Shown here in pieces: positions 128 through 38,434 of a stretch of DNA of 39,039 nucleotides (positions within the stretch are counted from its first letter, which is position 1; each line of letters begins with the position of its first letter). Position numbers and translations under genes: made by a program. The notes beneath the pieces were generated by a model. The model was not told the DNA's origin. It saw only the letters and a program-made list of their open reading frames with translations, and ran no database searches. The stretch is from a virus (taxonomy: Duplodnaviria; Caudoviricetes), in IMG/VR virus record IMGVR_UViG_3300043493_000025, positions 1 to 39,039 of that record; one strand, written 5' to 3'.

Positions 128-1479
128 CCGACCAGCGCGCTGTGGAGTGCTGGGCGCGGCGACTGGGCAAGGACCTGACCTACATGTCGGTCGCAGCATC
201 GAAGGTGCAGTTCGAGCGCAAGGGGCTGTACGTGCATTTCCTGCCCGAGGCCGAGCACGCACGCCGCACCATCTGGGATGGCTTCACCAACGAGGGAGAC
301 CGGCTGATCGACGTGGCCTTCCCGCCTGTGATGCGCTCGAAGACGCTCGACCATGACATGCGTATCGAGTTCAAGGATGGCGGCGCGTGGCAGCTAGGCG
401 GCTCGGATCAGTACGACCGCTGGGTAGGCAGCAACCCCATCGGCATCGTGTACAGCGAGTTCGCGCTGGCGCACCCGAGAGGCTGGGACCTGATGCGCCC
501 GATCCTGAAGATCAACGGTGGCTGGGCCGCGTTCATCTCCACGCCGCGTGGCTATAACCACTTCTTCCAGATCCTGCAGCTAGCCAAGGAGAATCCGGGC
601 TGGCGCTGGTCGCACATCAACGCACTCGAAGCGATGCTCGACGATGGCAACCCCGTGATGACGCAGTTCGACATCGACGAGGAAGTGCGCCAAGGCATGC
701 CCGAGGAACTAGCTAGGCAGGAATACCTGTGCGACTTCAGCGCCGCCAACGTGGGCGCGATCCTCGGGCGACAGGTGGAGCGCGCCGACAAGGATGGCAG
801 GTTGCGAGACGAGGTGTACGACGCAGCAGGCGAGCGCATCGACGTGTCGCTTGACCTTGGATTCCGCGACACGGCGGCTGCGTGGTTCTGGCAACGCTGG
901 CATGACACGCACGGCCTCGTTGACTACGATGAGGACAACGGGCTCGACGCCGAGCAGTGGATACAACGCTTGGCGGACAAACCGTGGCACTACGGCACGA
1001 TCTATCTACCGCACGATGCACGTGCCAAGACCTTCCAGACTCGGCACACGGTACTGGAGCAGTTCGCCGCCGCCATCAAGGATGGACGTTTAAACGCCGA
1101 GCGCGCGGTGCTGGTGCCGATGACCAGCATTTCCGACCGCATCAACGCGGCGCGCACCGTGATGCCGTACTGCCGCTTTGACCGCGTGGCGTGCGCTCAG
1201 GGCCTGCTCACCCTGCGCGAATGGCAGTACAAGTACGACGATGCGCGCAAGACTTACAGCCGCGAGCCCGAGCACAACTGGGCGAGCCACGGCGGCGACG
1301 CCTTCAGCTACGGCGCGCAGATGATGCGCTTCAGCAGCAAGAGCCTAACTACCAAGCGCGTGCAAGGCCCGGTTAACTGGGCCGATGCGCGCGATCCCCG
1401 CCACATCATTCGCCCGACGCTCGCCGACATGTGGGCCGAGCGTGAGCACGAAGCCGAACAAAGGAATCGCATCCCATGA
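25..1479 (+). CDS. terL: Terminase large subunit
   Basis: Walker A-like WARRLGKD, Walker B-like IVYSEFA, FISTPRG coupling motif, nuclease DLGFRD and SHGGDAFSY; lies between terS and portal. Confidence 0.93.
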   Translation: MAEPVIEMKGPPIPGIRPREYQLPVFKYWEGNKKPDQRAVECWARRLGKDLTYMSVAASKVQFERKGLYVHFLPEAEHARRTIWDGFTNEGDRLIDVAFPPVMRSKTLDHDMRIEFKDGGAWQLGGSDQYDRWVGSNPIGIVYSEFALAHPRGWDLMRPILKINGGWAAFISTPRGYNHFFQILQLAKENPGWRWSHINALEAMLDDGNPVMTQFDIDEEVRQGMPEELARQEYLCDFSAANVGAILGRQVERADKDGRLRDEVYDAAGERIDVSLDLGFRDTAAAWFWQRWHDTHGLVDYDEDNGLDAEQWIQRLADKPWHYGTIYLPHDARAKTFQTRHTVLEQFAAAIKDGRLNAERAVLVPMTSISDRINAARTVMPYCRFDRVACAQGLLTLREWQYKYDDARKTYSREPEHNWASHGGDAFSYGAQMMRFSSKSLTTKRVQGPVNWADARDPRHIIRPTLADMWAEREHEAEQRNRIP

Positions 1480-3503
1480 GCGCACTGACGCCGACCCTAA
1501 CTAGCCGCTCCGACTTCGAGAAGACGCCGCAGGGCATCCAGCAGCTATGGATCACCGAGCTAGCGGCGGCCAAGAAGGATCAGGAGAAGTGGCGCAAGGC
1601 GGGCGAGCGCATCACCAAGGTGTTCCTCGATGAGCGCGGCGAGGAACAGAGCGTGATCGACATGCTGCGCTCTGGGACACGTTTAAACGTCTTCAGTGCC
1701 AACATCATCACGCTGCGCGCGCTCTTGTTCGGCAACGTGCCGCGCGTCGATGTCGGCAGGCGCTACCAAGACTCGGACGACGATGATGCGCGCGTTGCGA
1801 GCGAGATCATGGAGCGCAGTCTGAACGCCGACATCGGTGAGCAGTTCAGCTTCGGCATAGGGCAGGCGCTCGATGACAGGTTGTTAGTCGGCTTCGGCTG
1901 CGCTCGCGTGGCGTACGAGGCGGACTTCGAGACCATCCAGCATGAGGCGATCATGTTGGGGGAGCGCGAGGTGGCACCCGCGTTCGAGGAAGAAGTGAAG
2001 CACAACGAGGCCGCCCCTGTTTACTACTACAACTGGCGCGACGTGCTGTGGTCGCCCGCGCGTACGTGGGACGAGGTGCGCTGGATCGCGTTTCGCAACT
2101 ACCTCACCCGCGATGAGTGCAAGGCGCGCTTCGGCGACAAGATAGGCGAGGCCATGCCGCTCGGCACCTCCAAGCGCAAGGCCGCCGATGCGGGCATCCA
2201 GTTCGATCCGTGGCAGAAGTCCGAGGTGTGGGAGGTGTGGGACCGTACCATCAAGAAAGTCATCTGGATGTGCGAGGGCATGGACGTGATCTGCGACATG
2301 AAGCCCAACACGCTCTCGCTCAAGGGCTTCTTCCCGTGCCCCAAGTTCATGCTTGCCAACCCGACCAGCAAAGCCTATCTACCGCGCGCTGACTACATCT
2401 TGGCGCAGGACCAGTACAACGAGTTGAACGACTGCAGCCGCCGCATCACCATGCTGCAGAAGGCGCTCAAAGTCGTCGGTGTGTACGACAAGTCGGCGGA
2501 CGGCATCCAGCGCATGCTCAACGAGGCGACCGAGAACACGCTCATCCCGGTAGATAGCTGGGCGATGTTCGCCGAGAAGGGCGGCATCAAGGGGCAGGTC
2601 GACTGGTTGCCGCTCGATCAGGTGGTGGCGGCGTTGACGGCGCTGCGCGACTACCGCAGCGAGCTTGTGAACCTGCTCTATCAGGTCACGGGTATGAGCG
2701 ACATCCTGCGCGGTGCCACGCAGGCGGGCGAGACCGCGACCGCACAGTCGATCAAGGCCAAGTTTGCAAGCGTGCGCGTGCAGGCACAGCAGGACGAGTT
2801 CGCGCGCTTCGCGACCGATCTTCAGAAGCTGCGCGCCGAGGTGATGATCCTGCACTTCAGCGACGAGGCGCTGGTCAAGCAGGCCAACATGGAGTTCACG
2901 CCTGACCAGCAGCATGTGCCCGGAGCGCTCAAACTACTGCGCGAGAAGGATGTGTTCCGCATCGCCATCAAGTCCGAGCAGTTAGCCATGCAGGACATGG
3001 CGGCATTGCGGCAGGAGAAGACCGAGTTCGTTCAAGGGCTGTCGGGCTTCATCACTGCCGCCGCGCCGCTGGTGCAGGCGCATCCGGCCGCAGCCCCGAC
3101 GTTGCTCGAACTACTCAAGTGGGCGATGTCCGGCTTCAAGGGCGCGTCGACCGCCGAGTCGATCTTGGACTCTGCCATCGCATCGCTGCAGCAGAACCCG
3201 CCGCAGCAGCCGCCAGATCCGGCCAAGCAGAAGGCCGATGAGCAGCAGGCCAAGACGCAAGCCGGGATGCAGGTCGAGAAGATGAAGCAGCAGGGCAAGC
3301 AGGTGGAGATTGGTGCCAACTTGCAGGCCGACCTAACAAGGGTGCAGGCCGAGACCGGCGCGGAACTGCAGAAGCAAAAGGCGCAGTTCATCTTCGACAC
3401 GCACGCCGCCAATCGCGACGCCATCAACCAGTCGCAGGAAGCGCAGCGCACCGAGGGGGTGGCTGCGACCACGGCAGTCACATCCAAGAGGCCATCGCAA
3501 TGA
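1476..3503 (+). CDS. Portal protein (P22-like podovirus type)
   Basis: 675 aa directly after terL with ATGA overlap; QVTGMSDILRGATQAGETATAQ motif; Gln-rich helical C-terminus. Confidence 0.88.
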   Translation: MSALTPTLTSRSDFEKTPQGIQQLWITELAAAKKDQEKWRKAGERITKVFLDERGEEQSVIDMLRSGTRLNVFSANIITLRALLFGNVPRVDVGRRYQDSDDDDARVASEIMERSLNADIGEQFSFGIGQALDDRLLVGFGCARVAYEADFETIQHEAIMLGEREVAPAFEEEVKHNEAAPVYYYNWRDVLWSPARTWDEVRWIAFRNYLTRDECKARFGDKIGEAMPLGTSKRKAADAGIQFDPWQKSEVWEVWDRTIKKVIWMCEGMDVICDMKPNTLSLKGFFPCPKFMLANPTSKAYLPRADYILAQDQYNELNDCSRRITMLQKALKVVGVYDKSADGIQRMLNEATENTLIPVDSWAMFAEKGGIKGQVDWLPLDQVVAALTALRDYRSELVNLLYQVTGMSDILRGATQAGETATAQSIKAKFASVRVQAQQDEFARFATDLQKLRAEVMILHFSDEALVKQANMEFTPDQQHVPGALKLLREKDVFRIAIKSEQLAMQDMAALRQEKTEFVQGLSGFITAAAPLVQAHPAAAPTLLELLKWAMSGFKGASTAESILDSAIASLQQNPPQQPPDPAKQKADEQQAKTQAGMQVEKMKQQGKQVEIGANLQADLTRVQAETGAELQKQKAQFIFDTHAANRDAINQSQEAQRTEGVAATTAVTSKRPSQ

Positions 3504-3978: not shown

Positions 3979-3979
3979 C

Positions 3980-6900
3980 ATGGGCAACCGCAGCACGTTC
4001 GTCCTGAATGCGCCTGACGAGATGCAGTCGCCGCAGCCCACGGGCGACCGCAACCTCTGGCTGACTGACAACGAGCGCAAGCGCCGCGCGCTGCGCCGCC
4101 AGTCGACCGACGCGGCCGAGTCGCTCGGCAATGATCTTGCGAGCGGCCAGCAGTTCATAGGCGACTTGGGGCGCAATGCGCTGGGCCTGCCCGAGGCTGC
4201 CATGACGGTCGGCACGGGGCTTGTCTCGCAGCTTGGCACGGGGCTCGGCACCGCTGCGGGCATGGTCGCCGACACGCTGCGCAATGGCATCTCTGGCGGG
4301 GTAGATAGGTCTGGCAATCCGGTGATGCGCGTGCGCCAGCCCGACATCGACTCCGCTGCCGAGACCATCGGCGACAACAGCGAGCGCTTCACCTACCAGC
4401 CCAAGACCGAGGGCGGGCAGGGCGCGCTGCGCGGCGTGGGCGAGGTGATGGCACCGCTCGATGAGGCCATGAAGGAGGGCGGTCAGCGTGTATCGCAGGC
4501 GACCGGCTCACCGCTCGCTGGAGCGCTCACCTACGGCGGGCTGAACTTCTTGGGGCCTGAGCATGGGGCACCGGTCGTCGCCGCGCTCCGGGGCTCCAAG
4601 GCGCTCACGGGGCTCATCGAACGGGCGGGTGCGTCGCGCGGCATCGCGAGCACTGGCCGCAGGGCGCGGCAGTCGGGGGCATGGGTGCCGGGTGACATCG
4701 CTGAGACGCCGGGCGACTTCTCGATGCGCTCGCCCACGGTCGATGCGTTTACACGCCTCAAGCCGCAGGAGCAGGTGAAGCTCCCCGGCAGGCAGTTGAT
4801 GAAGGCGTTGCAGCGCGAGGGTGCGAAGAAGGAGGAACTCACGTGGATGGGCCTCGACAAGGTGCTCGACACGGATGAGCCGCTCGCTGTTGCTGATGTC
4901 AAAAGGCTGGCCGAATCCAATGCGCCCAAGATCGAGCACGTGCAGGCGCGTGCTGGCGAGGATGGCGGCGAACTCGACGACGACAAGGTCCATGAAGCGG
5001 TCAGTGAAGCGGTCAGCAACGACGATGACCTGCGCTACCCGGTGACGTTGCAGCACCGTGCTCCCGGCACGCGCAGGTACGAGACATACGATCAGGCTCC
5101 CGGCAATTTCGATAGCCATGACGAGGCGATGGACTGGCTGGACGAGCACAAGAAGGAACTGGTCGAGCACGAGACTAACTACTATCTTGAAAATATCGGC
5201 GAGCATTTCGACGAGGAACAACTTGCCGAGATGAGCGACGAGCAGAAACAGGAGTGGGCTGAGAGTGCTGCGGAATCCTCTGTCGGGGATCAGTTAGGGG
5301 AGTTCGAGACGGAGAACGATTACGACAGCGGCGCGATCAACGAGGAAGAACTGCGCGACTACCACGAGCAGCGCATCCGTGAGAACCCTGCCGATTATGG
5401 CCTCGAAGGTACTGCCGATGCGCCTGACTACGGCGAATACACGGTCGGGCAGCACGGCCGCGAACCCGAGGCTAACTACACGGTGGCGACCGGCAAGCTC
5501 GCGGGTGAGAGTCGCTTCGGGCGCAACATGGGCGAGCCGTCGTTCTTGGAGCCGCATACGCGTGCTGAGAGGGCAGAAGCCAACGCGCGCAACCCGGATT
5601 TCATCGAGGGCGCGCGCGGCAATCCAGACATGGAAGCTGCGCTCGCGAAGGACTTGCAGGACAGTCAGGCGCAGTTGTCGTTGCTGCCCGAGGAAGCCAA
5701 GTCGAAGGCATACCAGCGCGAGGCGCTGCGCCGGGGGCAGGTGGCCGAGGACCCGAACGCCAGCAAGTACCGCAGCCAGTCGAACCTGTCTCACTACCGT
5801 GACATGGGCAAGAACCAGATGTATTTCACGCGCGAGACGCATCGGCCCGCGCCTGACTGGGGCACGGTGCAGAGGGGCGTTGGTCGTGTTGATGAGACTG
5901 GCTTGGGCACGAATGAAGGCGCGGCGCTGCCCGAGTCGAACGATGATAACCCGCTCGCATTCCTCGAAGAAGCGCAGAGCGACTGGTATCAGAAGGGCCG
6001 CAAGACCGGCTGGGCTGACCCCAAGGGCATCGGTGAGATCGAAAAGCAGAAGGTAGATAGGGAGGCGCAGCTAGGGGCGTTTAAACAGCAGGCCGTGGGA
6101 GAACTCAGCAACCTGTGGACTAACCCGCACGTGGCCGAGGTGATAAAGCACGGCATCGCGGCTGAAGGGAAGGACAGCTATCTAGCCTCAAAGCTCAAGG
6201 AATGGGCAGATCTGCAGCCGGGTGGTGAATTGGTGGGGCAGGTAGAGCCCAGTGAATTACAGGATGCGCGCCTCCGGGCGGGCAGAGCCGTTCTCCGCGA
6301 GATCGGCCCATACGCATACGAAAATCCCCCGGCGCAGCAGTTGATAGAACAAACGGCGCAGGGCTTGAGCCAGATGGAGAACATGTCCTCGATTCCCGGC
6401 ACGGAAGACCTGACGCCGACAGGTCCCATGCGCGAGACCCCGCAGTACACGCAGCTTGCAATGGCCGACGCGCTGCGCCGCGCGGTGCAGGAGGGCAAGC
6501 AGTACTTCGGATGGACACCGCCCGACGTGCACGCGCACCGCTGGGGTACGGAGTCGATGCAGTACGCGCCGAGCGCTGAGAATCCGCGCATGATGCGTGC
6601 ACGCTTCGGCACCCGTCGGCTTGAGCAAGACCCCGGCACGATGCTGGAGAAATTGCAGGGGCGTGCTGATGAGTTGTTAGGCGATGATGTACCGTCGGAG
6701 ATGTTCAACCTCGACGATCCGAATATCGACAAACTACTGCACGAAGCTGTCGAGGCCAATCTTGACTACGGCATGAGTGACTACCCGGACCCCAACGCGC
6801 AGCGCGCCAAGCGTGCGGCGGGCATCAAGAAGGACATGGAGCGCCTCTCGCAGCGCATGACGACGGAAGGACCGCTGCCAGATGAAGGCACCATTCCCCG

Positions 6901-8212: not shown

Positions 8213-8334
8213 GAGCACGTGCGTGCCCACTTCTATCGAGACAGCCCCGGCACCGGGACAAGGCCGAAGCGTGTAAACGCTCCACGGGAAACGGTGTAAA
8301 CGCTAGGCTCAATCTCGAATAGTTAGGGGCTAAC

Positions 8335-10642: not shown

Positions 10643-10660
10643 GCAAGGGAGCGTTTAAAC

Positions 10661-12620: not shown

Positions 12621-14264
12621 GTGCTTCAGGCAGGCCAAAAATTTGCCGAGATTGCGCTGGGCAAGCGCAAGCCGCAGCGCCAGAACACCAAGCCCACGTT
12701 CTGGCCCGCAACGCAGGGCGGCATCAATGCCGTGTCCGCTGCGAGCGCGGTGCCGCCGCAGGATGCGCTGCTGCTCATCAACATGATCCCGTCCGAAAAG
12801 GGCGTGCGAATCAGGAAGGGCTGGATCGAGCATTGCCAGAAGGTGCCCATCGGTGATGGCGTCAAGACGCTCGTGCCGTTTACACACCAGAACGTCGACG
12901 CGCCGGTCGACAAGCTGTTTGCCCTAACTAGTGACGGCATCTACGATGCGACCACGGTGGGCGCGCTGCCGGTCAAGGTGATGGACTTTCCGACCAAGTC
13001 GGGCGAGGCTGGCTGGGCGCAGTGGACGCACTACACCACGATTGCCGGGCAGTTCATTCTGCTGTGCGACAAGGCTAACGGCTATTACGTCTACACTGCC
13101 GCAACCAATACATGGGCTATCGGCGTGGTAGTTAGCGCACCAGCGGGGCTGCTCGCTACCTCGCTGGTGTTTGTGATGGTGTGGAAGAACCGCGTCTGGT
13201 TCATAGAGAAGGACACCGGCACGGGCTGGTATCTGCCGGTGGGCGTGGTTGCGGGTACGTTGACGCCTTTCTACTTCGGCAACAAGTTCAAGTACGGCGG
13301 TTATCTCAAGTCGCTGTGGAACTGGACGCTCGATGGTGGTGAGGGTGTCGACGACTATCTAGTCGCCATCGGCAGCGCGGGCGACATGGTGGTCTACAAG
13401 GGCACTGATCCAGCCGCTGTTGCCACCTTCAACCAGAGTGGCTGGTGGTACATCGGCCGCCCCATGCAGGGCCGCAGACAAGGCGCGAGTATGGGCGGCG
13501 AGCTACTAATCGCGACCAACTTCGGCATCCTGCAAACGTCGAAGTTGGTCGCGGGGCAGCCCGCGACCGATGAAGCCGTGTCGATGAGCTACAAGATCAA
13601 CCCGGCGATCAATCAGGTGAGCGACCGGATGGCCGAGTTCTACGGCTGGGAGCCGGTGTTCATTCCGAAGGAACAGCTTCTGATGTTCATTACGCCGAAG
13701 GAAGCTGGTCAGACCTATCTACAGTTTGTGTTCAACACGGCAACACGCGGTTGGTGCGTGTTCGCGGATCTGCCGGTGAAGACCGGCGTGATGTGGAAGA
13801 ACAAGTTCTATTTCGGCACTGACGACAATCGGATAGCTAGTTACGAAGGTTTCCTCGACCACGTGATGCGCAACCCCATCGTTGACGGCACCTTCGAGCC
13901 TATTCAGTGGGAATCGCTCACCGGCTTTCAGGGATTCAACGAGCCCGCGATCTGGAAACGGGTGCAATTCATGCGCCCGCTGTTCATCGGGCAGTCGAAC
14001 CCGGTGTACAAGATCGTCGCGCGCTACGATTTCGACCTGACGCCTCCCGCAGGCTCTGCAGTCTTCCCCGCTACCTCGGGTGCGATCTGGGACCTTGGCA
14101 TCTGGGACTTCTCGTTGTGGGGTGGCGGCTACGTCACGACCAAGTCGCCGAAGGGCGGCAGCGGCATGGGTCGCTACGTGGCGCTGTACATGCGCGGGCG
14201 GGTGTCGTCGGAGTTGATTCACGTCGGCACCGATGTGCTCTACGACGTTGGTGGCATGCTATGA
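12621..14264 (+). CDS. Tail nozzle / packaged-DNA stabilisation protein (P22 gp10 / tubular B-like)
   Basis: 547 aa beta-propeller-like composition; GGIN, WKNRVWF, WTLDGGEGVDDYLV, VYKGTDP and WD...WD..LWGG motifs. Confidence 0.75.
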   Translation: MLQAGQKFAEIALGKRKPQRQNTKPTFWPATQGGINAVSAASAVPPQDALLLINMIPSEKGVRIRKGWIEHCQKVPIGDGVKTLVPFTHQNVDAPVDKLFALTSDGIYDATTVGALPVKVMDFPTKSGEAGWAQWTHYTTIAGQFILLCDKANGYYVYTAATNTWAIGVVVSAPAGLLATSLVFVMVWKNRVWFIEKDTGTGWYLPVGVVAGTLTPFYFGNKFKYGGYLKSLWNWTLDGGEGVDDYLVAIGSAGDMVVYKGTDPAAVATFNQSGWWYIGRPMQGRRQGASMGGELLIATNFGILQTSKLVAGQPATDEAVSMSYKINPAINQVSDRMAEFYGWEPVFIPKEQLLMFITPKEAGQTYLQFVFNTATRGWCVFADLPVKTGVMWKNKFYFGTDDNRIASYEGFLDHVMRNPIVDGTFEPIQWESLTGFQGFNEPAIWKRVQFMRPLFIGQSNPVYKIVARYDFDLTPPAGSAVFPATSGAIWDLGIWDFSLWGGGYVTTKSPKGGSGMGRYVALYMRGRVSSELIHVGTDVLYDVGGML

Positions 14265-24537: not shown

Positions 24538-24550
24538 GTTTAAACACTCC

Positions 24551-24599: not shown

Positions 24600-25436
24600 T
24601 TACCAGCCAGCCTTGGCGAGGCAGATCGGGCCAATGCCGATCTCGATGCTCTGCGGATCAGTCAGCGGGCGCGAGCAGCACGAGCAGCGACCGGTCAGGA
24701 TGCCGCTTTCCTTCGCGGCCTTCGCCGGGTCGGCTTCGATGATGTCGAGCGTCTGGATGGCGCGCTTCGTGGCGTCGTCGGAGAGGCCACGCGGCAGGGC
24801 GCGGAAGGCGTGCGACGCGGTGTTGACCGAGCCAAACAGGGTGCCGTCGAACTTGAGCCAGATCACCGATCCGTCGTTCTTCAGCGAAGCCTTGAAGTCG
24901 CCGACCGAGAAGTGCGCGAAGGCGTCGAGGCTAACTACCTTGCACAGGTTCGGGTAGAGCTTGGCGGCGGGAGCGGCCGGGGCATCGCCGTCAGTGTGGA
25001 ACTGTGCGACCAAGCGGCCGACGTGCGGGCGCTGGCGGTCGGTGAACGAGCCGTAGCGTTTAAACCCTGCGAGCAGCGAGGTGGCGAAGTCCACGTCGCG
25101 GGCAGCGAGGCGCGGCAGGTAATCGCCGAGGCGCTCGGCAAGCTGCGCGTCGCTCACGCCGCTGGTCGGGCAGGCAGCGAGCGGGGTGTGCGGCACAATC
25201 GGGGCGGGAGCGGCGAGGCCAGCGAGGCGCGCAGCGTGCGGGCGCTGCTTGTCGGTGAAGCTGCCGTACTTGGTGAAGCCGTCGATGAGCGAGCGGGCGA
25301 ACTGCGTGTCGCGCTCGGCGATGTTCGGGTAGTTCTGCAGGAGCGCGCGGGCGATCTCCTGATCGTTCGAGGGAGCGGCGGCGACGGGTTCGTGCTTGAC
25401 GATCTGCTGCGCGGCCTGCTGTTTCCAATCTTTCAT
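24600..25436 (-). CDS. DUF6011-type Zn-finger protein with an N-terminal tandem repeat
   Basis: C-terminal GRCSCCSRPLTDPQSIEIGIGPIC; two copies of RD..FA.SL..GF..YGSFTD.QRPH..RL; GGAG RBS before ATG 25436. Confidence 0.72.
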   Translation of the reverse strand: MKDWKQQAAQQIVKHEPVAAAPSNDQEIARALLQNYPNIAERDTQFARSLIDGFTKYGSFTDKQRPHAARLAGLAAPAPIVPHTPLAACPTSGVSDAQLAERLGDYLPRLAARDVDFATSLLAGFKRYGSFTDRQRPHVGRLVAQFHTDGDAPAAPAAKLYPNLCKVVSLDAFAHFSVGDFKASLKNDGSVIWLKFDGTLFGSVNTASHAFRALPRGLSDDATKRAIQTLDIIEADPAKAAKESGILTGRCSCCSRPLTDPQSIEIGIGPICLAKAGW

Positions 25437-26600: not shown

Positions 26601-27987
26601 GTCGTTTGTCCTTGAGTGCGTTCATCAGGGCGTTCTGGCCGCGCGCCTTGTGGCGCAGTGCGTCCAGCACATCTCCGTCGATGGTATCAACCGCGACGAT
26701 GTAATGGAAGGTGACGGGCTTGGTCTGGCCCTGACGCCACACGCGCGCGTTGAACTGGTCGAATTCCTCCAAGTTCCACGTGAGCGAGAACCAGCACACC
26801 GCGTTGCCACCGGCCTGAAGGTTTAAACCGTGCGCCACCGAGGTCGGGTGCGCGAGCAGCACCGGGATGGAACCAGCATTCCACTGGCTGACAATCTTGG
26901 CCGACTCGTTCGCCGACACGCCGCCGCCTAGATAGGGCACCGGCAGCCCTAACTTCTTGCGGATCGCGTCGACTTCGTGCTGGAAGGCGACGGCCACCAA
27001 GAGGGGCTGGCCTTCCTGCTCGTCGATCAGGTCGGCGAGCGCGTCGAGCTTGGCGTCGTGGACCGAGTGCGAGACCTGCGTCGCCGTGATGCCCATGTCG
27101 CCGCCGCTCGAACCGTACACGCCGCCGCTAGCTACCTGTCGCAGCTTCATGCCCTTGGCGGCAGCATTGGCAGCGGTCACGAGGCCCGAGCCGATCTCGC
27201 TGTAAAAGTCGTCCTCAAGATCCTTGTAGACCTTGCGCGCGGCGCTCGGCAGTTCGACCTTGATGAAGTTCTCGATCTTGCGCGGCATCTGTAGATAGTC
27301 CTCGACGCGCAGCGCGAGCGTCACGTCGGCGATCTTCTTCTGCACACGTTCCTGCGTGTCGCGGCGCGGGTGCCAGAGCGAATAACCGAACTGCTTTTCC
27401 TCGTAGAAGTATTCGCGGCGGAAGTGGGTGATGTACTTGCCGAGGCGCTCGCCGCCGTCGAGCATGAAGATCTGCCCGAAGACGTTCTCGATGCCGTTCG
27501 GGGCAGGCGTGCCGGTCAGAATCCACACGCGGCTGAAGCGGTCGCGCATGCGCTTCATGATTTTGTAGCGCAGGGTCTGCGTGTTCTTGATCTTGGTCGA
27601 CTCGTCGAGGCACAGCACGTCGAAGGGCATCGGCTTGCCCGCGAGTTCCGTCTCAAGCCACGACAGGCCCTCGTAGTTGATAACGTAAACGTCGGCCTTT
27701 TCCTTGAGGCGCTCGGCCTTCTTGGGGCCATGCAGCACGACATGCTTCAGGCCCGCGAAGTCGGTCCACTTGGCGATCTCGCCCGGCCACACGATGGACA
27801 TGGGGCGCAGGGGCGCGACGACCAGCATGGCCTTCGCGGCATTGTTTTCCTTCAGCACCGAGAACGCGGCCAAGGTGGTCGAGGTCTTGCCGAGACCGGG
27901 CTCGGCGAACAGGCCGTAACCGGGCTTGGAAAGCATGTCGCCGATGGCGCGCATCTGGTAGGGGTGGGGGGTCCAATTGATGGTCAT
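26593..27987 (-). CDS. SNF2-family (SF2) helicase
   Basis: EPGLGKT, LDEST, LTGTP, HGLNLQ and QFNARVWRQGQ motifs. Confidence 0.92.
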   Translation of the reverse strand: MTINWTPHPYQMRAIGDMLSKPGYGLFAEPGLGKTSTTLAAFSVLKENNAAKAMLVVAPLRPMSIVWPGEIAKWTDFAGLKHVVLHGPKKAERLKEKADVYVINYEGLSWLETELAGKPMPFDVLCLDESTKIKNTQTLRYKIMKRMRDRFSRVWILTGTPAPNGIENVFGQIFMLDGGERLGKYITHFRREYFYEEKQFGYSLWHPRRDTQERVQKKIADVTLALRVEDYLQMPRKIENFIKVELPSAARKVYKDLEDDFYSEIGSGLVTAANAAAKGMKLRQVASGGVYGSSGGDMGITATQVSHSVHDAKLDALADLIDEQEGQPLLVAVAFQHEVDAIRKKLGLPVPYLGGGVSANESAKIVSQWNAGSIPVLLAHPTSVAHGLNLQAGGNAVCWFSLTWNLEEFDQFNARVWRQGQTKPVTFHYIVAVDTIDGDVLDALRHKARGQNALMNALKDKRHE

Positions 27988-28457
27988 TCCGTTCTCCGTG
28001 AGGGCGCACCACGCGCCACGGATCGGAGCTTGACAGGTTGCGTTGATACTGTCAACAGGACGCGGAAGGCCTGCAGGTCGTCGATCTTCTCGGCCGGGAA
28101 GCCCATCTGGGTGAAGATGCCCATGAAGTGGCGCTGGATCTTCTCAAGGCCCCGCCCCCGGCGCTTCAGTTCCACCAGCACGGCGCGTCCACCGGGGCAC
28201 ATCAGGATGCGGTCAGGAAGCCCTACGACGCTGCCCTGCAGCTTGAGGAACAGGCAGCCTGCCTTGGTAGCCGCTGCCCGGCAGGACCGCTCCAGCGAAC
28301 TCTCAAGCGGCCTCCGGGCAGATTTTGCGGAAGGCGCACCAGCCGCAGTGGTTGCCGGGGCGGAAAGGGAAGATGGTCGCGCCCGTGAGGCGGCCCGCGC
28401 GCTGCTCCCACTTTTTGGCGAGCTTCGCCGCGCTCTCGCGTTTAAACGTCTTGTCAT
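27984..28457 (-). CDS. VRR-NUC domain nuclease (start uncertain)
   Basis: LESSLE, GLPDRILM and LVELKR..G....Q motifs; the domain begins near 28307 and the only in-frame ATG is at 28457. Confidence 0.78.
   Translation of the reverse strand: MTRRLNARARRSSPKSGSSARAASRARPSSLSAPATTAAGAPSAKSARRPLESSLERSCRAAATKAGCLFLKLQGSVVGLPDRILMCPGGRAVLVELKRRGRGLEKIQRHFMGIFTQMGFPAEKIDDLQAFRVLLTVSTQPVKLRSVARGAPSRRTE
28027..28056 (-). promoter_or_regulatory. Putative promoter/operator upstream of the helicase
   Basis: TTGACA-17 nt-CAAGCT; GTTGATACTGTCAAC near-palindrome; followed by the conserved leader hairpin. Confidence 0.55.
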
Positions 28458-29242: not shown

Positions 29243-31083
29243 TTGGGTTTCTCCATGTTGCCGAAGTCAACGCCATAGGTCGGGTCGGTCTTGGTGGGCA
29301 CGTCGAGCTTGAACGCCTCGCGCATAGCTAGGTCGAGCAGCGCGCTCGCCGACTTCTCCTTGCCCTTCGGCGCGCAGCCGACTAACTGGTCGTGCACCGT
29401 GAGCAGGAAGCGCGTGTCGGTGCCCCGGATCTGCGGCCACCACAGGCGCATGGCTTCCTTGGTCTGGTCGGCGCTGGAGCCTTGGATGAGGTAGTTCAGG
29501 AGCACGTACTCGAAGGTCTGGGTGCTGCCCGTCGCCTTGTCGATGCGCGCGGCCGGGGAGAAGTACTGACGGCCACCAATCGTGGTGATGTTCTGCCCGG
29601 CGCGACCTATCGCGTTCACCTCCTGCTGCAGCGTCTTCACGCTGGGGAGCGCGTTGTCGTAGGCGGCGATGAGCCCCTGCGCATCCTCGTAGCTGATGCC
29701 TAACTTCAGCGCCAGAGCCCGCGCGCCCATGCCGTAGATCTTGCCGAAGTTGATGGTCTTGGTCTGCTTGCGCGACAGTTCGATGCCGATGTTCTTGTGG
29801 ATCAGTTCGGCGACGAACTCATGCACGTCGAGGCTCGGATCTTTCCGGTACGCCTGCGCGAGCACGCCGTCCTCGTAGTGGGCGAGGAACTTCAACTCCT
29901 GCTGGCTGTAGTCGCGCGAGAACAGCACGTGGCCCTTGGGCGCAACTAGATAGGAGCGCAGGTTCGGCAGCGTGAAGGACTTCGAGGTGAGGCGCTGCGT
30001 GCGCATGTACGCCAGTAGCTCGTCGTACTTCTCCGGGTTCGTCGTGTTCTGCATGTTAGGCGACGACGAGAGCCGCCCGGTCTTGGCCCCGTAGTCCGAG
30101 TAGTCGCGCACCTGATTCCAGTTGCAGTGAAGACTGGTGCCGTGCAGACCCCACGGCCGCATGTACATCGTCAGGCACTGGTTGAGCGCCGAGCGGTAGA
30201 GCAAGAGCCCCTTGACCTTGCCGTCCGGCAGCGCGCCCATCAGCGCTTCCTTGGCGGTAGATAGCTTGCCGGTCGGGGTGCGCGGAAGCCGGATGTGCTT
30301 GTTCTTCTCCAGCGCCTCGGCGAGTTCGTCGCCCGAGTCGAAGTTGGCAGGCGGGGTGCTGCCAATGTCGTGTTTCCAGACCGAGCGCAGATTGGCTTCG
30401 ACGCCTGCCAGCACGCTCTCGTAGTGCTCGGTGTCGGCGTACAGCTTCCTGTGATCGAGCGGGATGCCGTGCGCGGAGTTGTCGAGCAGCAACGGCATGA
30501 TCTCGCACTCGCGCCGATATGCCTGCCACAGGCCGCGCTCCTTCAGCATCGGCTTGAAGTGTTTAAACAGCTTGAGTGTTCGTTCGACATCGCCGCTCGC
30601 GTACGGTCCCACGACATCGCCGGGTGCCTGTGAGATGAACGCGCCACACTGCTTGTCAGTCGGAGCGCGGCCTGCCTCAGTCAGGTAGTTAGCTTTCAGC
30701 CAGTGCCTGACCGCGTCCTGTTCTTCGGGCGGCATCCCTAGGTAGCGCTCGGCGAGTGGCTTCAGGGACAGTTCGCCGTAGGGCTCCAGCAGGAAGGCCA
30801 TAATCATCGTGTCGTTGATCTGCTGGCCGTCGGGTAGTGAGAGGCCGAGCTTCTCGCAGGCGACCGCGATGTCGAACGCAGCGTTGTGGCACAGCATCGG
30901 GTCGGTCCACATGTCCTCCAGCGCGTCGATGCCGTCGACGATATGGGCGTTGTTGCCCTTGGGGTGGCCCCATGAGATGTAGCCCGGCCCCTTCTTCGCA
31001 TCGCCAATGGCGACACCGACCGGGGCGGGCGGGTAGTTAGGACGTGATTCAATCGCAGCGGTCTCGAAGTCAAAGCAACGCAT
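29239..31083 (-). CDS. DNA polymerase family A with 3'-5' exonuclease domain
   Basis: ExoI FDFET, ExoII HNAAFD, TGRLSSSPNMQN, motif A DYSQQE, motif B KTINFGKIYG, motif C VHDQL. Confidence 0.95.
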   Translation of the reverse strand: MRCFDFETAAIESRPNYPPAPVGVAIGDAKKGPGYISWGHPKGNNAHIVDGIDALEDMWTDPMLCHNAAFDIAVACEKLGLSLPDGQQINDTMIMAFLLEPYGELSLKPLAERYLGMPPEEQDAVRHWLKANYLTEAGRAPTDKQCGAFISQAPGDVVGPYASGDVERTLKLFKHFKPMLKERGLWQAYRRECEIMPLLLDNSAHGIPLDHRKLYADTEHYESVLAGVEANLRSVWKHDIGSTPPANFDSGDELAEALEKNKHIRLPRTPTGKLSTAKEALMGALPDGKVKGLLLYRSALNQCLTMYMRPWGLHGTSLHCNWNQVRDYSDYGAKTGRLSSSPNMQNTTNPEKYDELLAYMRTQRLTSKSFTLPNLRSYLVAPKGHVLFSRDYSQQELKFLAHYEDGVLAQAYRKDPSLDVHEFVAELIHKNIGIELSRKQTKTINFGKIYGMGARALALKLGISYEDAQGLIAAYDNALPSVKTLQQEVNAIGRAGQNITTIGGRQYFSPAARIDKATGSTQTFEYVLLNYLIQGSSADQTKEAMRLWWPQIRGTDTRFLLTVHDQLVGCAPKGKEKSASALLDLAMREAFKLDVPTKTDPTYGVDFGNMEKPK

Positions 31084-32015: not shown

Positions 32016-32276
32016 CTACGCCTTGCTGTTGGCGGCCTCAACTGTGCCGTTTAAACGCTCCGGGTATGACCCCATGTTGATAGTGCCGTCAGTGATCTCG
32101 GTGTAGAGATAGGGCTTCAGGTCGGCGCGGGTTCGCACCGAGGTGTGGCCTAACTTCTTGCCCTCGACCACGCGGCAGACCACGTGCGCCATGCCGGTGT
32201 CGGGGTGCTGCTCGTCGAGCCAGTAGACGCGGCCGTCGGCCTTGTCGGTGTGGAGAATGAGGCTCTGCGTTCTCAC
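32016..32276 (-). CDS. Hypothetical protein
   Basis: GTGA-coupled start at 32276. Confidence 0.6.
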   Translation of the reverse strand: MRTQSLILHTDKADGRVYWLDEQHPDTGMAHVVCRVVEGKKLGHTSVRTRADLKPYLYTEITDGTINMGSYPERLNGTVEAANSKA

Positions 32277-32689: not shown

Positions 32690-32942
32690 CGCATCTCTCC
32701 GTCGGGTGTCTGTTGATAATGTCAGCAGGGTACATGCGCGAGTTGACCAGAGTCAACAGCGCCTTGGCGATGTCGTCGCCCATCACGTTGTTCTTCACCG
32801 TGATGGGCGACACCGCGCCCTTGGCCCGTGCCTGCCAGTACTGAACGATGCGACGTTTACACGTCTCGATGTCGTTCCGCTGGAAGGCGAGCACGCCGTC
32901 AGTCAGGATCTGCTCGGCGGCAGGTTGCTGGATCACGGTCAT
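32679..32942 (-). CDS. Hypothetical protein
   Basis: GGAG RBS and ATGA overlap at 32942. Confidence 0.6.
   Translation of the reverse strand: MTVIQQPAAEQILTDGVLAFQRNDIETCKRRIVQYWQARAKGAVSPITVKNNVMGDDIAKALLTLVNSRMYPADIINRHPTERCDEN
32711..32757 (-). promoter_or_regulatory. Putative internal promoter with two operator-like palindromes
   Basis: TTGACT-18 nt-TACCCT; GTTGACCAGAGTCAAC (32742-32757) and TGTTGATAATGTCAGCA (32711-32727). Confidence 0.5.
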
Positions 32943-34318: not shown

Positions 34319-34363
34319 TTTGGATCTCCTGCCCCGGCACCACGCCGGGGCTTCATGTTGATA

Positions 34364-34392
34364 ATTATACAGATGGGGTTGACGTTGTCAAC
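34364..34392 (-). promoter_or_regulatory. Consensus sigma70 promoter with operator palindrome
   Basis: TTGACA-16 nt-TATAAT; GTTGACGTTGTCAAC at 34378-34392. Confidence 0.8.
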
Positions 34393-34398
34393 GGATGT

Positions 34399-34578
34399 TT
34401 AAACGTGGTCGATCCCCTCACAGGCGGCCAAGAAGCGCACGCGGTCGAAGCGTTGGTTTTCGCGGGCGAACGTGTCGGCCAAGCGACTAGCTACCAGCGC
34501 GAGCGCAATGGGGTCCTTGGTGAAGCTGCGCGCGTCGGCGAAGATCGCCGCGATGGCGATGTAATGCTTGCGGCTCAT
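34399..34578 (-). CDS. Small early protein (59 aa, not in ORF track)
   Basis: MSRKHYIAIA...LADTFARENQRFDRVRFLAAC; ATGA coupled; its stop lies in a GTTTAAAC site. Confidence 0.7.
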   Translation of the reverse strand: MSRKHYIAIAAIFADARSFTKDPIALALVASRLADTFARENQRFDRVRFLAACEGIDHV

Positions 34579-34805: not shown

Positions 34806-34812
34806 ATAATCC

Positions 34813-34917: not shown

Positions 34918-34919
34918 AG

Positions 34920-35267: not shown

Positions 35268-35301
35268 CTTGCGTCTCCAGTTCAGTGATTCGATGGAGTG
35301 C

Positions 35302-35404
35302 ACTCTACAGGCTCTGTTGACGATGTCAACGGATATTTGCATCCCCTGATTATTGTTTAAACGCGCGATACCTGTTGACATCGTCAAAGGGGCAGTGTTT
35401 AAAT
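35302..35404. promoter_or_regulatory. Divergent early promoters with paired operators
   Basis: - strand TTGACA-16-TAGAGT with TGTTGACGATGTCAAC (35315-35330); + strand TTGACA (35375)-18-TTAAAT with TGTTGACATCGTCAAA; GTTTAAAC (35355) lies between them. Confidence 0.72.
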
Positions 35405-35449
35405 GCACGCATCGAAAGGCGTGGTGCCTTTCATCAACGGAGTCTGGCA

Positions 35450-36025
35450 ATGAAAGCAATCAAGAGTCGCGAGGAATGGCTGAACGTGGTGCTGCACAAG
35501 CACATCGCCAAGCTGCTCAAGGTGAAGGCCGGTGTGGTGCTGCCTGCCGACGCCAAGGTGTCGGTCGGCTTCCCCGGTGGCGGCTCGGCGCGCAAGCGCA
35601 TCGGTGAGTGCTGGCCGCGCAGCCGCTCGTCGATCAAGGTCAACGAAATTTTCATCAACCCGTCGATCACCGCACCGACGCTGATGATCGACGTGCTGGT
35701 GCACGAAGCCATCCACGCGGTCGACGACTGCAAGAACGGCCACAAGGCCCCGTTCCGCCGCATGGCGCTCGCGGTCGGCCTTGAGGGCAAGATGAAATCG
35801 ACGCACGCAGGGGCTGAGTTGTCGAAGTGGATAGGCGAGGTACTCGCCGCGATGCCGAAGATCGACTACGGCTCGCTCGACCTGTCAGGCCGCAAGGTGC
35901 AGTCGACGCGCATGCTGAAGCTGAAATGCGACTCGTGCGGCTACGTGGTGCGTACCACGCAGAAGTGGGCCGAGTGCGGCATGCCCTCATGCTGCTGCGG
36001 CGGCGACTTCCACAAGGCGGGCTGA
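35450..36025 (+). CDS. SprT-like zinc metalloprotease with C-terminal Zn ribbon
   Basis: VLVHEAIHA (HExxH) then GHKAPF; CDSCGY..RTTQKW...G.P.CCCG. Confidence 0.8.
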   Translation: MKAIKSREEWLNVVLHKHIAKLLKVKAGVVLPADAKVSVGFPGGGSARKRIGECWPRSRSSIKVNEIFINPSITAPTLMIDVLVHEAIHAVDDCKNGHKAPFRRMALAVGLEGKMKSTHAGAELSKWIGEVLAAMPKIDYGSLDLSGRKVQSTRMLKLKCDSCGYVVRTTQKWAECGMPSCCCGGDFHKAG

Positions 36026-36156
36026 TGGAAGTGCTCGACGCCATCATCAACAAGGGGGCCGCGTTCTACGCGGCCCATCCTCTCATCAGTGCGCTGCTCG
36101 TTTATTGCGTGCTGGATGAATTCGCCGACTGGATGAACAAGAGGCCGCGCAAATGA
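36025..36156 (+). CDS. Small hydrophobic protein (43 aa)
   Basis: TGATG and ATGA coupling; MEVLDAIINKGAAFYAAHPLISALLVYCVL. Confidence 0.55.
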   Translation: MEVLDAIINKGAAFYAAHPLISALLVYCVLDEFADWMNKRPRK

Positions 36157-36353
36157 AGTTCCGCATCGTGCGTTTAAACGAGCAGACCCTCGATGTCGGC
36201 AGCTACGTGCTGGTGTGTGCGCGCCATGTTGCTAATGGCAACGTGCCCCGCTTCCCGGCGCAGCTTGAGGTCTCCGAGGATGGTGTCATCTGGCAGGCGG
36301 TGCCCTTCGTCAACGCCAGTCTCGTCGACGACGAGGATGAGACGCCCAAATAA
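36153..36353 (+). CDS. Hypothetical protein
   Basis: ATGA coupling; followed by a hairpin. Confidence 0.6.
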   Translation: MKFRIVRLNEQTLDVGSYVLVCARHVANGNVPRFPAQLEVSEDGVIWQAVPFVNASLVDDEDETPK

Positions 36354-36384
36354 AAACGGCGGGGCACAGATGTGTCCCGCCGTT
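36352..36384. terminator. GC-rich hairpin, possible terminator
   Basis: AACGGCGGGGCAC-AGAT-GTGTCCCGCCGTT; the T-run is on the - strand. Confidence 0.5.
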
Positions 36385-36511
36385 AACCACTGGGAGTCAG
36401 CGCTGGCAAAAGCGCACGCTTGTTCAGGGCGCGGCGCAAGAGTACCGTAGACCTGTTCTCCGTTGCAAGTACCAACGCGACGGGATGTTTAAACACCACT
36501 TGGAGCTACCG

Positions 36512-38434
36512 ATGTCTGCAGATCCTGCGCAGTTCGCCCTGCCATTCTCGCACTACGCGCGCCTTGGCTATCTACCTGTGCCGCTGCATGGCAAGGTGCC
36601 GTATTCAGTCGGTTGGCAAACTACCCGCTACGAGCAGACCGAACTCGACGTGCTCGACACTCAAGGCAATCTTAACGTCGGGCTCCTGTGCGAGAACATC
36701 GTCGGTCTCGACATCGACCTGACTGATGAGAGCCACGCGCGGAAAATCGAGGCGCTGATCCGGCGCACGTTGAAGCTACCGAAAGCGACGCCGCGCCGCG
36801 TCGGCAACGCACCCAAGGCGCTGCTCATCATGCGCGTGGAGACGCCGCTGCCCGGCTTCGACATTCGGCACGACAGGAAGGTCGTGCTGTTCCAGTTGCT
36901 GGGGGCTGGCAAGCAGTTCGTGGTGCATGGCATTCACCCCGACACCGGCAAGCCCTACACCCTGAACCGGCCCCTGCCACGGGTCGAGAAGCTGCCCCTC
37001 CTGACGGCTGCCGGGCTCGTGGCGCTACGCGAGGCGCTGACCCTTGGCCTGACCAAGCTGGGTTACTCGGTCGGCTCCCACGGCCCCTCCGTCGGCCGTA
37101 TAGGGGGTGGCTGGAGCGCCGCACGGTGGACGCCGACGGGGCAGCAACAAGCGGTCGATGCGCTGTGCCTGCTCGACCCTGACATGGCCCGTGCCGACTG
37201 GATCGAGTGCGGCATGGCGCTCGCCGATGGCACGCACGGCGACGATGACGGCTTCGCGCTCTGGGATACATGGTCGAGCACCTCGCCCAAGTACAACGCG
37301 CGCGAGATGCAGAAGCAGTGGAGATCGTTTAAACCCGGCGGCATCACTCGTGCGTCGCTGTTCAAGAACCAGTGGCTCAAGCGCGTACCAGTAGTTAGTA
37401 CGCCGCCCGTGCGCCATGACGACGATAGTGACGAGCGGCTCGCCGATCTGCTCGCACTCACGCCCGGAGCCGTGCCGTGGCTGGTGCAGGACATGCTGAC
37501 TCACGGCGCGCACCTGCTGGTCGGCCGTCCCAAGGGGGGCAAGTCGTGGGCCACGATGGACTTGGCCTATGCGGTAGCGAATGCGGGCAAGTTCGTGGGC
37601 AAGCAGGCACGCGCGGGCCGCGTGCTGTGGTTCGCGTCCGAGGATACACGCGAGGGACTAGCTAGGCGCTTGAAGGTACGTAACGAAGCAGTCGGTGACA
37701 ACGTCGTGGTGCTCGCGATGGAGAAGCTGCAGGCCGAGCGCGAGCAGTGGGATGACTGCACGTTCTGGGAGATGCTCGATGCGCGGCTCGAAGCCGATCA
37801 CTTCGATCTGGTGATCGTGGATACACAGAAGACCTGCGAGGCGGTATGGGCCAGCGAGCAGATAGACGAGCGGCGCAGCGCCAGCCCGGTCGATGTGGCC
37901 TACCAGAGCGTGCGGCTGTACGACGAGATCGGGCAGCGGCGCAAGACCTGTCTCGTGCTGGTGCATCACACCGGCAAGCTGAAGAACAACAAGGGCACGG
38001 ACTACCACGAGCGCATCAACATGCCAGCCACCGTGGTCGCAGGCGTGACGGGTTCGCTGGTGCTGGCTGATCCACCGGAGCGTGACCTGCACGCAGATGA
38101 TGACTTCCAGCGCATCCTAGCTATTCGTGGGCGGCACATGGCTCAAGGGGATGAGCAGTTGATGGTCGAGATCAAGATGGGCCGCTTGGAGTTGTTAGGC
38201 AAGTACAACGAGGTGGTGCAGACCCGTGCTCAGGCCGAGGTGTTCGCGGCTATCGAAGCATTGCTGCGCGATCAGGAGTCGACGAGCATTGCGCAAGTGG
38301 CCGAACACATGGGCAAGCACAAGAACTCGGTGCAGCGAGCGCTTGCGCGGGCGGCGAAGATGCCGGGCGGCATGGTGTGGAAGGGCAGACGGCTCGATGT
38401 GCGGTCGGGGCGGGGCATTCGGTGGCTGACGTAG
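36512..38434 (+). CDS. Primase-polymerase + PriCT-2 + RecA/AAA-type helicase fusion
   Basis: GYLPVPLHGKVP, VGLDID and GIHPDTGKPY (Prim-Pol); WIECGMAL, WDTWS..SPKY and WRSFK (PriCT-2); GRPKGGKS, VIVDT and LVHHTGK (helicase); GGAG before ATG 36512. Confidence 0.88.
   Translation: MSADPAQFALPFSHYARLGYLPVPLHGKVPYSVGWQTTRYEQTELDVLDTQGNLNVGLLCENIVGLDIDLTDESHARKIEALIRRTLKLPKATPRRVGNAPKALLIMRVETPLPGFDIRHDRKVVLFQLLGAGKQFVVHGIHPDTGKPYTLNRPLPRVEKLPLLTAAGLVALREALTLGLTKLGYSVGSHGPSVGRIGGGWSAARWTPTGQQQAVDALCLLDPDMARADWIECGMALADGTHGDDDGFALWDTWSSTSPKYNAREMQKQWRSFKPGGITRASLFKNQWLKRVPVVSTPPVRHDDDSDERLADLLALTPGAVPWLVQDMLTHGAHLLVGRPKGGKSWATMDLAYAVANAGKFVGKQARAGRVLWFASEDTREGLARRLKVRNEAVGDNVVVLAMEKLQAEREQWDDCTFWEMLDARLEADHFDLVIVDTQKTCEAVWASEQIDERRSASPVDVAYQSVRLYDEIGQRRKTCLVLVHHTGKLKNNKGTDYHERINMPATVVAGVTGSLVLADPPERDLHADDDFQRILAIRGRHMAQGDEQLMVEIKMGRLELLGKYNEVVQTRAQAEVFAAIEALLRDQESTSIAQVAEHMGKHKNSVQRALARAAKMPGGMVWKGRRLDVRSGRGIRWLT

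What the first reader, a model, noticed from the sequence alone, without database searches (positions are those of the whole stretch)
1088..37334. Second dispersed signal: the AT-rich palindrome GTTTAAAC, roughly 100-fold over expectation
Seen: 18 perfect copies against a rough expectation below 1, plus GTTTACAC/GTGTAAAC at 4747, 8271, 8294, 12878 and 32855, and GTTTAAAT at 35397. Nearly every TTTAAA I saw lies in this context, often extended to CGTTTAAACG or TGTTTAAACA. Copies are densest around the early promoters (34397-37334). Established: this is the PmeI recognition sequence, and phages normally avoid palindromes, so enrichment runs against restriction avoidance. Inference: a site for a dimeric protein acting as roadblock, stoperator-like repressor, partition/organisation factor or methylation mark, possibly working with TAGNTAG as a two-motif system.
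Basis: partly seen in the sequence, partly recalled or inferred. Interest (0 to 1): 0.8.

Follow-up and report, generated by a model that had tools for sequence, protein, structure and literature searches.

The report
Phage DNA word with switchable reader
This phage writes the 8-letter palindrome GTTTAAAC 18 times across its genome, likely as docking sites for its own Spartan-like zinc protease; relatives change the word whenever a few residues of that protein change, and three of them carry a nuclease predicted to cut the old word, which would make the word both a control switch and a target in phage-versus-phage conflict.

Summary
Observation confirmed: 18 GTTTAAAC (shuffle mean 0.05; codon-aware mean 0.09) plus 5 GTGTAAAC-type variants, evenly spread in a complete 38.9-kb podophage. 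It is the SprT-like HExxH protease with a C-terminal zinc ribbon (35450-36025). The scan found this word-protein link before on other DNA, and I retested it: 23 of 24 word-less family members lack the gene. New here is a recognition code. The sister phage (SprT 86% identical) changed the ribbon strand QSTRML to QATYLI and replaced every GTTTAAAC with CTTTAAAG, also at the same promoter positions. Loss of the Arg goes with C-flanked words in three non-monophyletic lineages, and a Pro goes with ATTTAAAT. All three lineages that carry a GIY-YIG nuclease fused to an old-type ribbon have switched words and hold no GTKTAAAC (Fisher p about 0.009, kinship uncorrected). Best reading: an autoregulating, stoperator-like repressor array that rival phages attack with a stolen reader domain. 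Binding, repression and cutting are all untested. TAGNTAG is an independent signal. Seven paper searches on the word or the protein found no description.

The parts
35450..36025 (+). SprT-like protein, 191 aa: HExxH metalloprotease domain (H85 E86 H89) plus C-terminal four-Cys zinc ribbon; inferred reader of the word
   Evidence: PF10263 E 7.5e-5, below Pfam cut-off; AF2 pLDDT 89; best fold match human SPRTN 6MDW, E 0.02; covariation with the word
35900..35920 (+). Codons for strand Q151-S-T-R154-M-L-K157 entering the zinc ribbon; inferred specificity strand
34364..34391 (-). Leftward early sigma70 promoter, 12/12 consensus; site 34397 lies 5 bp upstream of its -35
35302..35405 (.). Divergent early promoter region (leftward -35 at 35329 and 35378; rightward TTGACA at 35375-35380 before the SprT gene) holding sites 35355 and 35397
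   Evidence: the rightward promoter was read from the sequence, not called by the scan
1088..1095 (.). GTTTAAAC in terL (Arg-Leu-Asn, rare TTA)
1681..1688 (.). GTTTAAAC in portal
4747..4754 (.). variant GTTTACAC in the 1046-aa ORF
6079..6086 (.). GTTTAAAC in the 1046-aa ORF (TTT AAA)
8271..8301 (.). two GTGTAAAC upstream of the major capsid gene; 8271 is kept in L092, G002, L002 and L098, and both are lost in G001
10653..10660 (.). GTTTAAAC between RBS and ATG
12878..12885 (.). variant GTTTACAC in tail gene
15483..15490 (.). GTTTAAAC, coding
19124..19131 (.). GTTTAAAC, coding
20918..20925 (.). GTTTAAAC in tail fibre gene
24538..24545 (.). GTTTAAAC in RBS spacer; CTTTAAAG at the same place in G001
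25058..25065 (.). GTTTAAAC in DUF6011 gene
26821..26828 (.). GTTTAAAC in helicase gene
28440..28447 (.). GTTTAAAC in exonuclease gene
30561..30568 (.). GTTTAAAC in DNA polymerase gene
32049..32056 (.). GTTTAAAC; G001 has CTTTAAAG at the homologous place, with its GIY-YIG-ribbon gene inserted right beside it
32855..32862 (.). variant GTTTACAC, coding
34397..34404 (.). GTTTAAAC next to the early -35; switched in place in G001
35355..35362 (.). GTTTAAAC between the back-to-back -35 boxes; switched in place in G001
35397..35404 (.). GTTTAAAT at the -10 position of the SprT gene's own promoter; CTTTAAAT in G001, GTGTACAC in G016
36172..36179 (.). GTTTAAAC, coding
36487..36494 (.). GTTTAAAC at the start region of primase-helicase; switched in place in G001
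37327..37334 (.). GTTTAAAC in primase-helicase gene

Best explanation
The 18 GTTTAAAC copies and their GTGTAAAC variants are kept by selection on the DNA and are likely binding sites for the phage's own SprT-like protein (35450-36025), whose zinc-ribbon strand QSTRMLK is inferred to read the word, probably as a dimer, and so would repress the early promoters, including its own. Shown: the excess, even spacing, use of rare codons, sites at early promoters kept in place while coding sites turn over, presence of the gene in word-bearing phages and absence in word-less kin, and covariation of strand and word. Inferred: direct binding; dimer symmetry (both outer bases swap together); repression at the fixed promoter sites; roadblock or 'this DNA is mine' marking at the dispersed sites; a SPRTN-like DNA-triggered self-cleavage as the off switch. 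Also inferred: word switches are driven at least partly by conflict, since three switched lineages carry a GIY-YIG nuclease with an old-type ribbon that would cut GTKTAAAC-bearing rivals such as this phage.
For: Presence and absence: 23 of 24 family members picked for lacking the word have no SprT and hold 0-3 GTKTAAAC each. The exception, G031, has strand QKTFMLK and C-flanked words (CTTTAAAG 2 vs 0.04, CTCTAAAG 5 vs 0.15). Of 44 SprT clusters, 27 had a significant word: 22 GTKTAAAC, 21 of them with Q[S/T/G/A/N][T/A]R, and all 5 with another word had an altered strand. Sister pair: protease part about 90% identical, strand VQSTRMLKLKC vs KQATYLIKLQC, 15 CTTTAAAG and 0 GTKTAAAC. Arg loss goes with a C-flanked word in G001, G015 and G031, which are not one clade on a protease-only tree (p-AU 3e-7). 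Pro goes with ATTTAAAT in G017, G019 and G022, also not one clade (p-AU 9e-4). The word occurs with this gene in phages of Microbacterium, Arthrobacter, Streptomyces, Achromobacter, Pseudomonas, Dinoroseobacter and Pseudanabaena, which argues against one host factor. A site lies just upstream of the SprT gene in 9 of 10 cultured phages. In the window, G001, G016 and G022 each phage's own word or a one-base variant sits in that promoter. Arthrobacter phage Liebe (SprT truncated) gives clear plaques and near-identical Maureen gives turbid ones (10.1101/2025.05.26.655371, section 14 read).
Against: No binding, repression or cleavage data. 17 of 44 SprT clusters reached no significant word; many are short contigs, but complete phages ep3 (4 vs 0.92) and Mano (4 vs 0.13, borderline in the pooled test) are weak. 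Only 7 of 35 IMG/VR SprT loci had a site within 300 bp upstream of the gene. G011 has an atypical strand yet 19 GTTTAAAC. G010 has 43 sites and no SprT in its 96%-complete contig, although the gap covers the spot where its relative G011 has the gene. No integrase was found among 52 ORFs scanned, so a lysogeny repressor has no obvious quiescent state here. Most sites are inside genes, unlike stoperators. Human SPRTN's zinc-binding domain reads DNA structure, not sequence (PMC7534798 passages). Liebe and Maureen differ at three more positions.
Confidence: 0.6

Rival explanations
1. Same reader, different job: SprT docks every 1.5-2.5 kb as a site-activated protease that clears host proteins (nucleoid silencers, stalled or crosslinked proteins, translocating defence motors) from phage DNA only. 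The sites at its own promoter are just autoregulation.
For: Even spacing in the window and in G001 (P 0.005 and 0.003) with free turnover of coding positions. HExxH is invariant in 19 aligned SprTs. Fold closest to SPRTN. No integrase seen.
Against: Early-promoter sites are fixed and were rewritten in place; early-arm bias; Liebe clear-plaque phenotype. No substrate is known.
Confidence: 0.25
2. A host protein (nucleoid, methylase or restriction-type factor) reads the word, and the SprT gene only travels with it.
For: GTTTAAAC is a restriction-type palindrome (PmeI site, recalled). The host of this phage is unknown (one search gave no usable host).
Against: Same word across several host phyla; word changes track phage-protein residues convergently; the sister with the same CGATCG avoidance switched word.
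Confidence: 0.05
3. Packaging or replication signal read by TerS or the Prim-Pol primase-helicase, or sites of programmed nicks.
For: The TerS N-terminus is identical in the window and L092 and differs in G001; the primase has a C-terminal HTH.
Against: TerS is very divergent among GTKTAAAC phages. G010 and G011 share the word but gave no match to this primase or TerS. Siphophages with unrelated packaging genes share word and SprT.
Confidence: 0.05

Closest known systems
Cluster A mycobacteriophage operators/stoperators and their immunity repressor (L5, TipsytheTRex; PMC9283540, passages read)
   Same: About 20 or more dispersed sites; some at promoters; phage-encoded reader; specificity diverges among relatives.
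   Different: Stoperators are asymmetric 13-mers, oriented with transcription, in short intergenic gaps, bound by a two-HTH monomer.
SPRTN/Spartan DNA-dependent metalloprotease (PDB 6MDW/6MDX; PMC7534798 passages)
   Same: HExxH protease followed by a small zinc-binding DNA-binding domain; best fold match (E 0.02).
   Different: SPRTN recognises ss/dsDNA structure without sequence preference. The phage protein's strand covaries with an exact 8-mer.
Cluster AZ 'SprT-like protease' (Lizalica gp46; 10.1101/2025.05.26.655371, section 14 read)
   Same: Same protein family (AZ phages match at 38-45%); proposed there as a DNA-binding lysogeny factor.
   Different: The paper names no binding site (TAAAC and TTTACAC: 0 hits in main text; its supplements were not seen), no specificity code and no nuclease fusion.
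Homing endonucleases used in phage interference competition (PhiPA3 gp210; PMC11620839, abstract only) and modular GIY-YIG enzymes such as I-TevI
   Same: A nuclease gene in one phage that would cut a relative lacking it; the G001 gene is inserted next to a word site.
   Different: The predicted target is a rival's own genome-wide regulatory word (about 20 cuts), read with a domain taken from the rival's reader. Protection would come from rewriting the whole array. Not in the window, and untested.
HIP1 highly iterated palindrome of cyanobacteria (recalled, not read)
   Same: Iterated 8-bp palindrome placed in coding sequence.
   Different: Chromosomal, GC-rich and methylase-linked; no methylase found here.

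Membership tests
Cluster A stoperator system | Asymmetric 13-bp site oriented with transcription | tested here: not met
   8-bp perfect palindrome
Cluster A stoperator system | Sites at promoters and short intergenic gaps | tested here: not met
   14 of 18 overlap annotated ORFs; promoter sites do exist
Cluster A stoperator system | HTH plus Stoperator-domain repressor | tested here: not met
   Covarying protein is SprT-like; the Cro-like helix does not covary
Cluster A stoperator system | Blocks initiation and elongation, gives immunity | not testable with these tools
   indirect only: Liebe/Maureen plaques
SprT/Spartan-like proteases | HExxH zincin domain | tested here: met
   H85 E86 H89 invariant in 19 sequences; PF10263 23 bits, cut-off 25.6
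SprT/Spartan-like proteases | Zinc-binding domain after the protease | tested here: met
   CxxC...CxC ribbon; fold match 6MDW weak, E 0.02
SprT/Spartan-like proteases | DNA-activated proteolysis and self-cleavage | not testable with these tools
   needs biochemistry
GIY-YIG nuclease (fusion in G001, G016, G022) | GIY-YIG fold | tested here: met
   Top Foldseek rows PD-T4-3, UvrC GIY-YIG, T4 EndoII, I-TevI, E 0.003-1, none below 0.001; PF22945 E 2.5e-5 for homologue P0004
GIY-YIG nuclease (fusion in G001, G016, G022) | Catalytic Tyr, Gly, Arg, Glu, Asn | tested here: inconclusive
   Y4 Y6 Y16 G18 N89 invariant in 7; the Arg and Glu columns are each changed in P0006, which is the G022 type
GIY-YIG nuclease (fusion in G001, G016, G022) | Cleavage at or near GTKTAAAC | not testable with these tools
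   -
Methylase-linked iterated palindrome (HIP1 type) | Cognate methyltransferase | tested here: not met
   none among 52 ORFs (PHROGs) or 30 ORFs (Pfam); host enzymes not testable

The most novel reading that the evidence does not exclude
A widespread, undescribed phage system in which a sequence-specific Spartan-type protease reads a genome-wide 8-bp tag through a short zinc-ribbon strand with a simple code (Arg = G-flanked, Arg lost = C-flanked, Pro = A-flanked).
Probability: 0.35. Interest if true: 0.92.

Novelty: categorically new. Interest (0 to 1): 0.8.

Why it matters
It assigns a DNA target to a protein family annotated only as 'SprT-like protease' in 163 public phage records, many of them culturable, including Cluster AZ phages whose immunity repressor is unidentified. 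It would be a Spartan-family protease that reads sequence rather than structure, with a small natural specificity code that can be tested at once. If the nuclease fusions cut the old word, they show a new form of phage-phage warfare and a cause for genome-wide recoding of a regulatory site.

Tried and rejected
Primase-recognition idea for the palindrome (NrS-1 analogy, recalled; the search gave no usable paper): dropped, because distant word-bearing phages lack this primase. TerS as reader: dropped. Cro-like protein: dropped. Two-motif system with TAGNTAG: rejected. Hairpin-only selection: rejected, because 18 of 19 TTTAAA have the same flanks rather than any complementary pair. Host search in GTDB gave only MAG-binned or distant contigs. 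Active avoidance of the old word by nuclease carriers: only weak support, with 0 one-mismatch neighbours vs 3.2-4.3 expected, and 3 of 64 AT-rich palindromes tested (this one included) also at 0. A half-site tally (0 of 5 vs 20 of 33, p 0.017) was dropped because carrier G022 has 6 GTGTAAAT with a G end. A rule for the residue after the Arg was dropped (Mano and Persinger have R-L with GTTTAAAC). The metagenome scan gave no further full-length fusion among 28 loci. No cultured phage among 50,697 records covers 80% of the G001 fusion. Complex prediction of a ribbon dimer was not available, so dimerisation is untested. Paper searches without a description of the word or its reader: plus 103 and 104 for stoperator and homing-nuclease context (search listings seen).
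Full report
The genome. The window is a whole circular assembly (127-bp terminal overlap) of a 63.6% GC podophage: terminase, portal, capsid and tail genes on the + strand (25-24343), DNA polymerase A, SNF2 helicase, exonuclease and small early genes on the - strand, then an SprT-like gene, a Prim-Pol/PriCT_2/AAA_25 primase-helicase and TerS. No integrase or methylase was found among the 52 ORFs scanned. The best cultured match to terL is only 37% identical. The host is unknown.

There are 18 GTTTAAAC against 0.05 by dinucleotide shuffle. In ORFs the count is 15 (14 distinct) against 0.09 by synonymous-codon permutation. The phage spends rare codons on the word: of 26 Phe-Lys pairs counted (25 listed) 7 are TTT AAA although TTT is 42 of 391 Phe codons, and 8 of 37 Leu-Asn pairs are TTA AAC. 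With the five GTGTAAAC-type variants the array is more even than random (CV 0.59, P=0.005).

Relatives keep the excess but not the places. Of the relatives with portal identity of 61% or more, L092, L002, L093, L094, L095, L098 and G002 carry GTKTAAAC; L096 and L097 (6.4 and 5.0 kb) carry none. The near-complete sister G001 and fragment L001 carry CTTTAAAG instead: G001 has 15, with 0 GTTTAAAC and 0 GTGTAAAC, again evenly spaced (P=0.003). Of 16 window sites in aligned regions, 3 have a full site at the same place in G001, all at promoters or gene starts. None of 10 coding sites does, though 1088 lines up with a CTTTAAAT variant, and G001 has 8 sites where the window has none. Local alignments add 32049, 34397 and the -10 variant 35397 as rewritten in place. 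So there are fixed operator-like sites at the early promoters and a dispersed set for which only density is kept. Both outer bases swap together, as expected for a symmetric dimer (inference). TAGNTAG (92 strand matches vs 3.1) is separate: absent from the outer clade, 52 of 69 kept in G001, and not linked by distance.

The word also fills distant family members (G010 28+15, G011 19). Earlier scan notes pointed to an SprT-like zinc-ribbon protein. That lead changed my reading, which until then favoured TerS or the primase, and I tested it. Of 24 family records picked for lacking the word, 23 have no SprT. Among 97 SprT loci in 44 clusters, 27 clusters have a significant word: 22 GTKTAAAC, 21 of them with Q[STGAN][TA]R on the strand that enters the ribbon, and 5 with other words, all with altered strands; 17 clusters gave no significant word (the window's own protein fell into the G001 cluster by chaining). 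The window and G001 proteins are about 90% identical in the protease part, but the strand reads QSTRML vs QATYLI. The code is recurrent. Arg loss goes with C-flanked words in G001 (Tyr), G015 (ESNGL; 16 CTTTAAAG vs 0.02) and G031 (QKTFM). Pro goes with ATTTAAAT in G017, G019 and G022. QKNRH goes with GTGTACAC in G016 (11 vs 0.21). G019 and G031 were examined after the rule was formed. On a tree of the protease part alone (20 rows chosen from the set, quick mode), the three C lineages are not one clade (p-AU 3e-7) and neither are the three A lineages (p-AU 9e-4). Cultured phages with the standard strand carry the word: Zeta1847 22, SuMoo 16, VroomVroom 18, Tweety19 26, Marky 35+2, GardenState 11 in 40 kb (GTGTAAAC); Pan1 9 and R5C 9 in 40 kb, Mano 4, Persinger 4; ep3 is weak. 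Nine of these ten have a site just upstream of the SprT gene, but only 7 of 35 IMG/VR loci do. The AlphaFold model (pLDDT 89) has human SPRTN as best, weak match (E 0.02).

The nuclease fusion. G001 carries a gene the window lacks (L166 16374-16811), inserted beside the site homologous to window 32049. It is a GIY-YIG-fold domain joined to the same ribbon, with the old-type strand QTTRMLK, close to the window's own ribbon. A profile search found about seven such fusion clusters at 50% identity. Three lineages have genomic context: G001 (CTTTAAAG), G016 (GTGTACAC) and G022/G023 (ATTTAAAT). All three have a switched SprT strand, an old-type fusion strand and no GTKTAAAC in the sequence examined. 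Against 4 switchers and 23 non-switchers without a detected fusion, Fisher p is 0.009. Against the weapon reading: the test ignores kinship (the G001 and G016 SprTs are near kin, though their fusions are 39% identical); most non-carriers are fragments; complete switchers G015 and G031 have no fusion; depletion of near-matches is weak; G022 holds 6 GTGTAAAT; and the G022-type fusion lacks the catalytic Arg and Glu columns. An alternative is that the fusion is a selfish homing gene, or a sensor, that can persist only in genomes that had already switched.

Mechanism. I commit to a repressor array: SprT binds the word through the ribbon strand, represses the early promoters and its own, and occupies the dispersed sites as roadblocks or ownership marks (0.6). 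The support for repression is positional, plus one published natural mutant: Liebe, with a truncated SprT, makes clear plaques and Maureen turbid ones (10.1101/2025.05.26.655371, find passages and section 14 read). That paper mentions unshown repeats in the region, and its supplements could not be seen and may bear on novelty. A site-activated clearing protease is the main rival (0.25). DNA-triggered self-cleavage as an induction switch is an analogy to SPRTN (PMC7534798, passages), not a result.

Comparison and novelty. It works like Cluster A stoperators but fails their defining features (PMC9283540, passages). The fusion resembles homing nucleases used in phage competition (PMC11620839, abstract) but would target a rival's regulatory word. 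My searches found no description of the word-SprT pairing in the held library. The scan has noted the pairing in other genomes (28 findings for the word). A search for the nuclease fusion among those notes returned none.

Noticed in passing
window, genome-wide: TAGNTAG (mostly GTAGWTAG) in about 86 places, evenly spaced (CV 0.72, P=0.001), on both strands, confined to the inner clade (window, G001, L001, L092). Reader unknown; a primase recognition site is one idea. G002 and L002 have ACGGGC over-represented instead.
   Followed up: partly
L166 16374-16811 (G001); L199 1588-2019; L272 9983-10450: GIY-YIG plus zinc-ribbon fusion genes in word-switched phages
   Followed up: yes
window, genome-wide: CGATCG nearly absent (1 site; about 55 expected by order-2 model), also in G001 and L092 but not G002 (24) or L098 (10): suggests a host restriction site and differing hosts within the clade
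   Followed up: no
window 3980-7120: 1046-aa ORF between portal and scaffold with no PHROG or Pfam match; closer to outer-clade G002 (42% over nearly full length) than to sisters G001 and L092 (N-terminus only): a swapped module
   Followed up: no
window 38434-38618: AT-rich non-coding stretch between primase and TerS with repeated TATACCTAT and TTAACAC elements; possible origin or late promoter
   Followed up: no
window 22820-24343: About 507-aa ORF after the tail fibre, no family match, shared only with G001 (63%)
   Followed up: no
P0086, P0096, P0053, P0009, P0021, P0062: The same zinc ribbon occurs on GNAT, WD40-like and GMC-oxidoreductase-like proteins and as stand-alone 50-90 aa proteins
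   Followed up: no
L130, L138, L144, L145, L158, L164, L172: Other family members have their own over-represented 8-mers (ACCGAAGC, AGTAAGTA, CCCAGTTA, AGACGCAG, ACCAATGG, CCCGAAGA, CCGTAGCC); L130 and L145 lack SprT
   Followed up: no
tree: The window's G-type SprT is nested among switched relatives (A, A, GTGTACAC, C), so it may be a reversion or a ribbon swap
   Followed up: no
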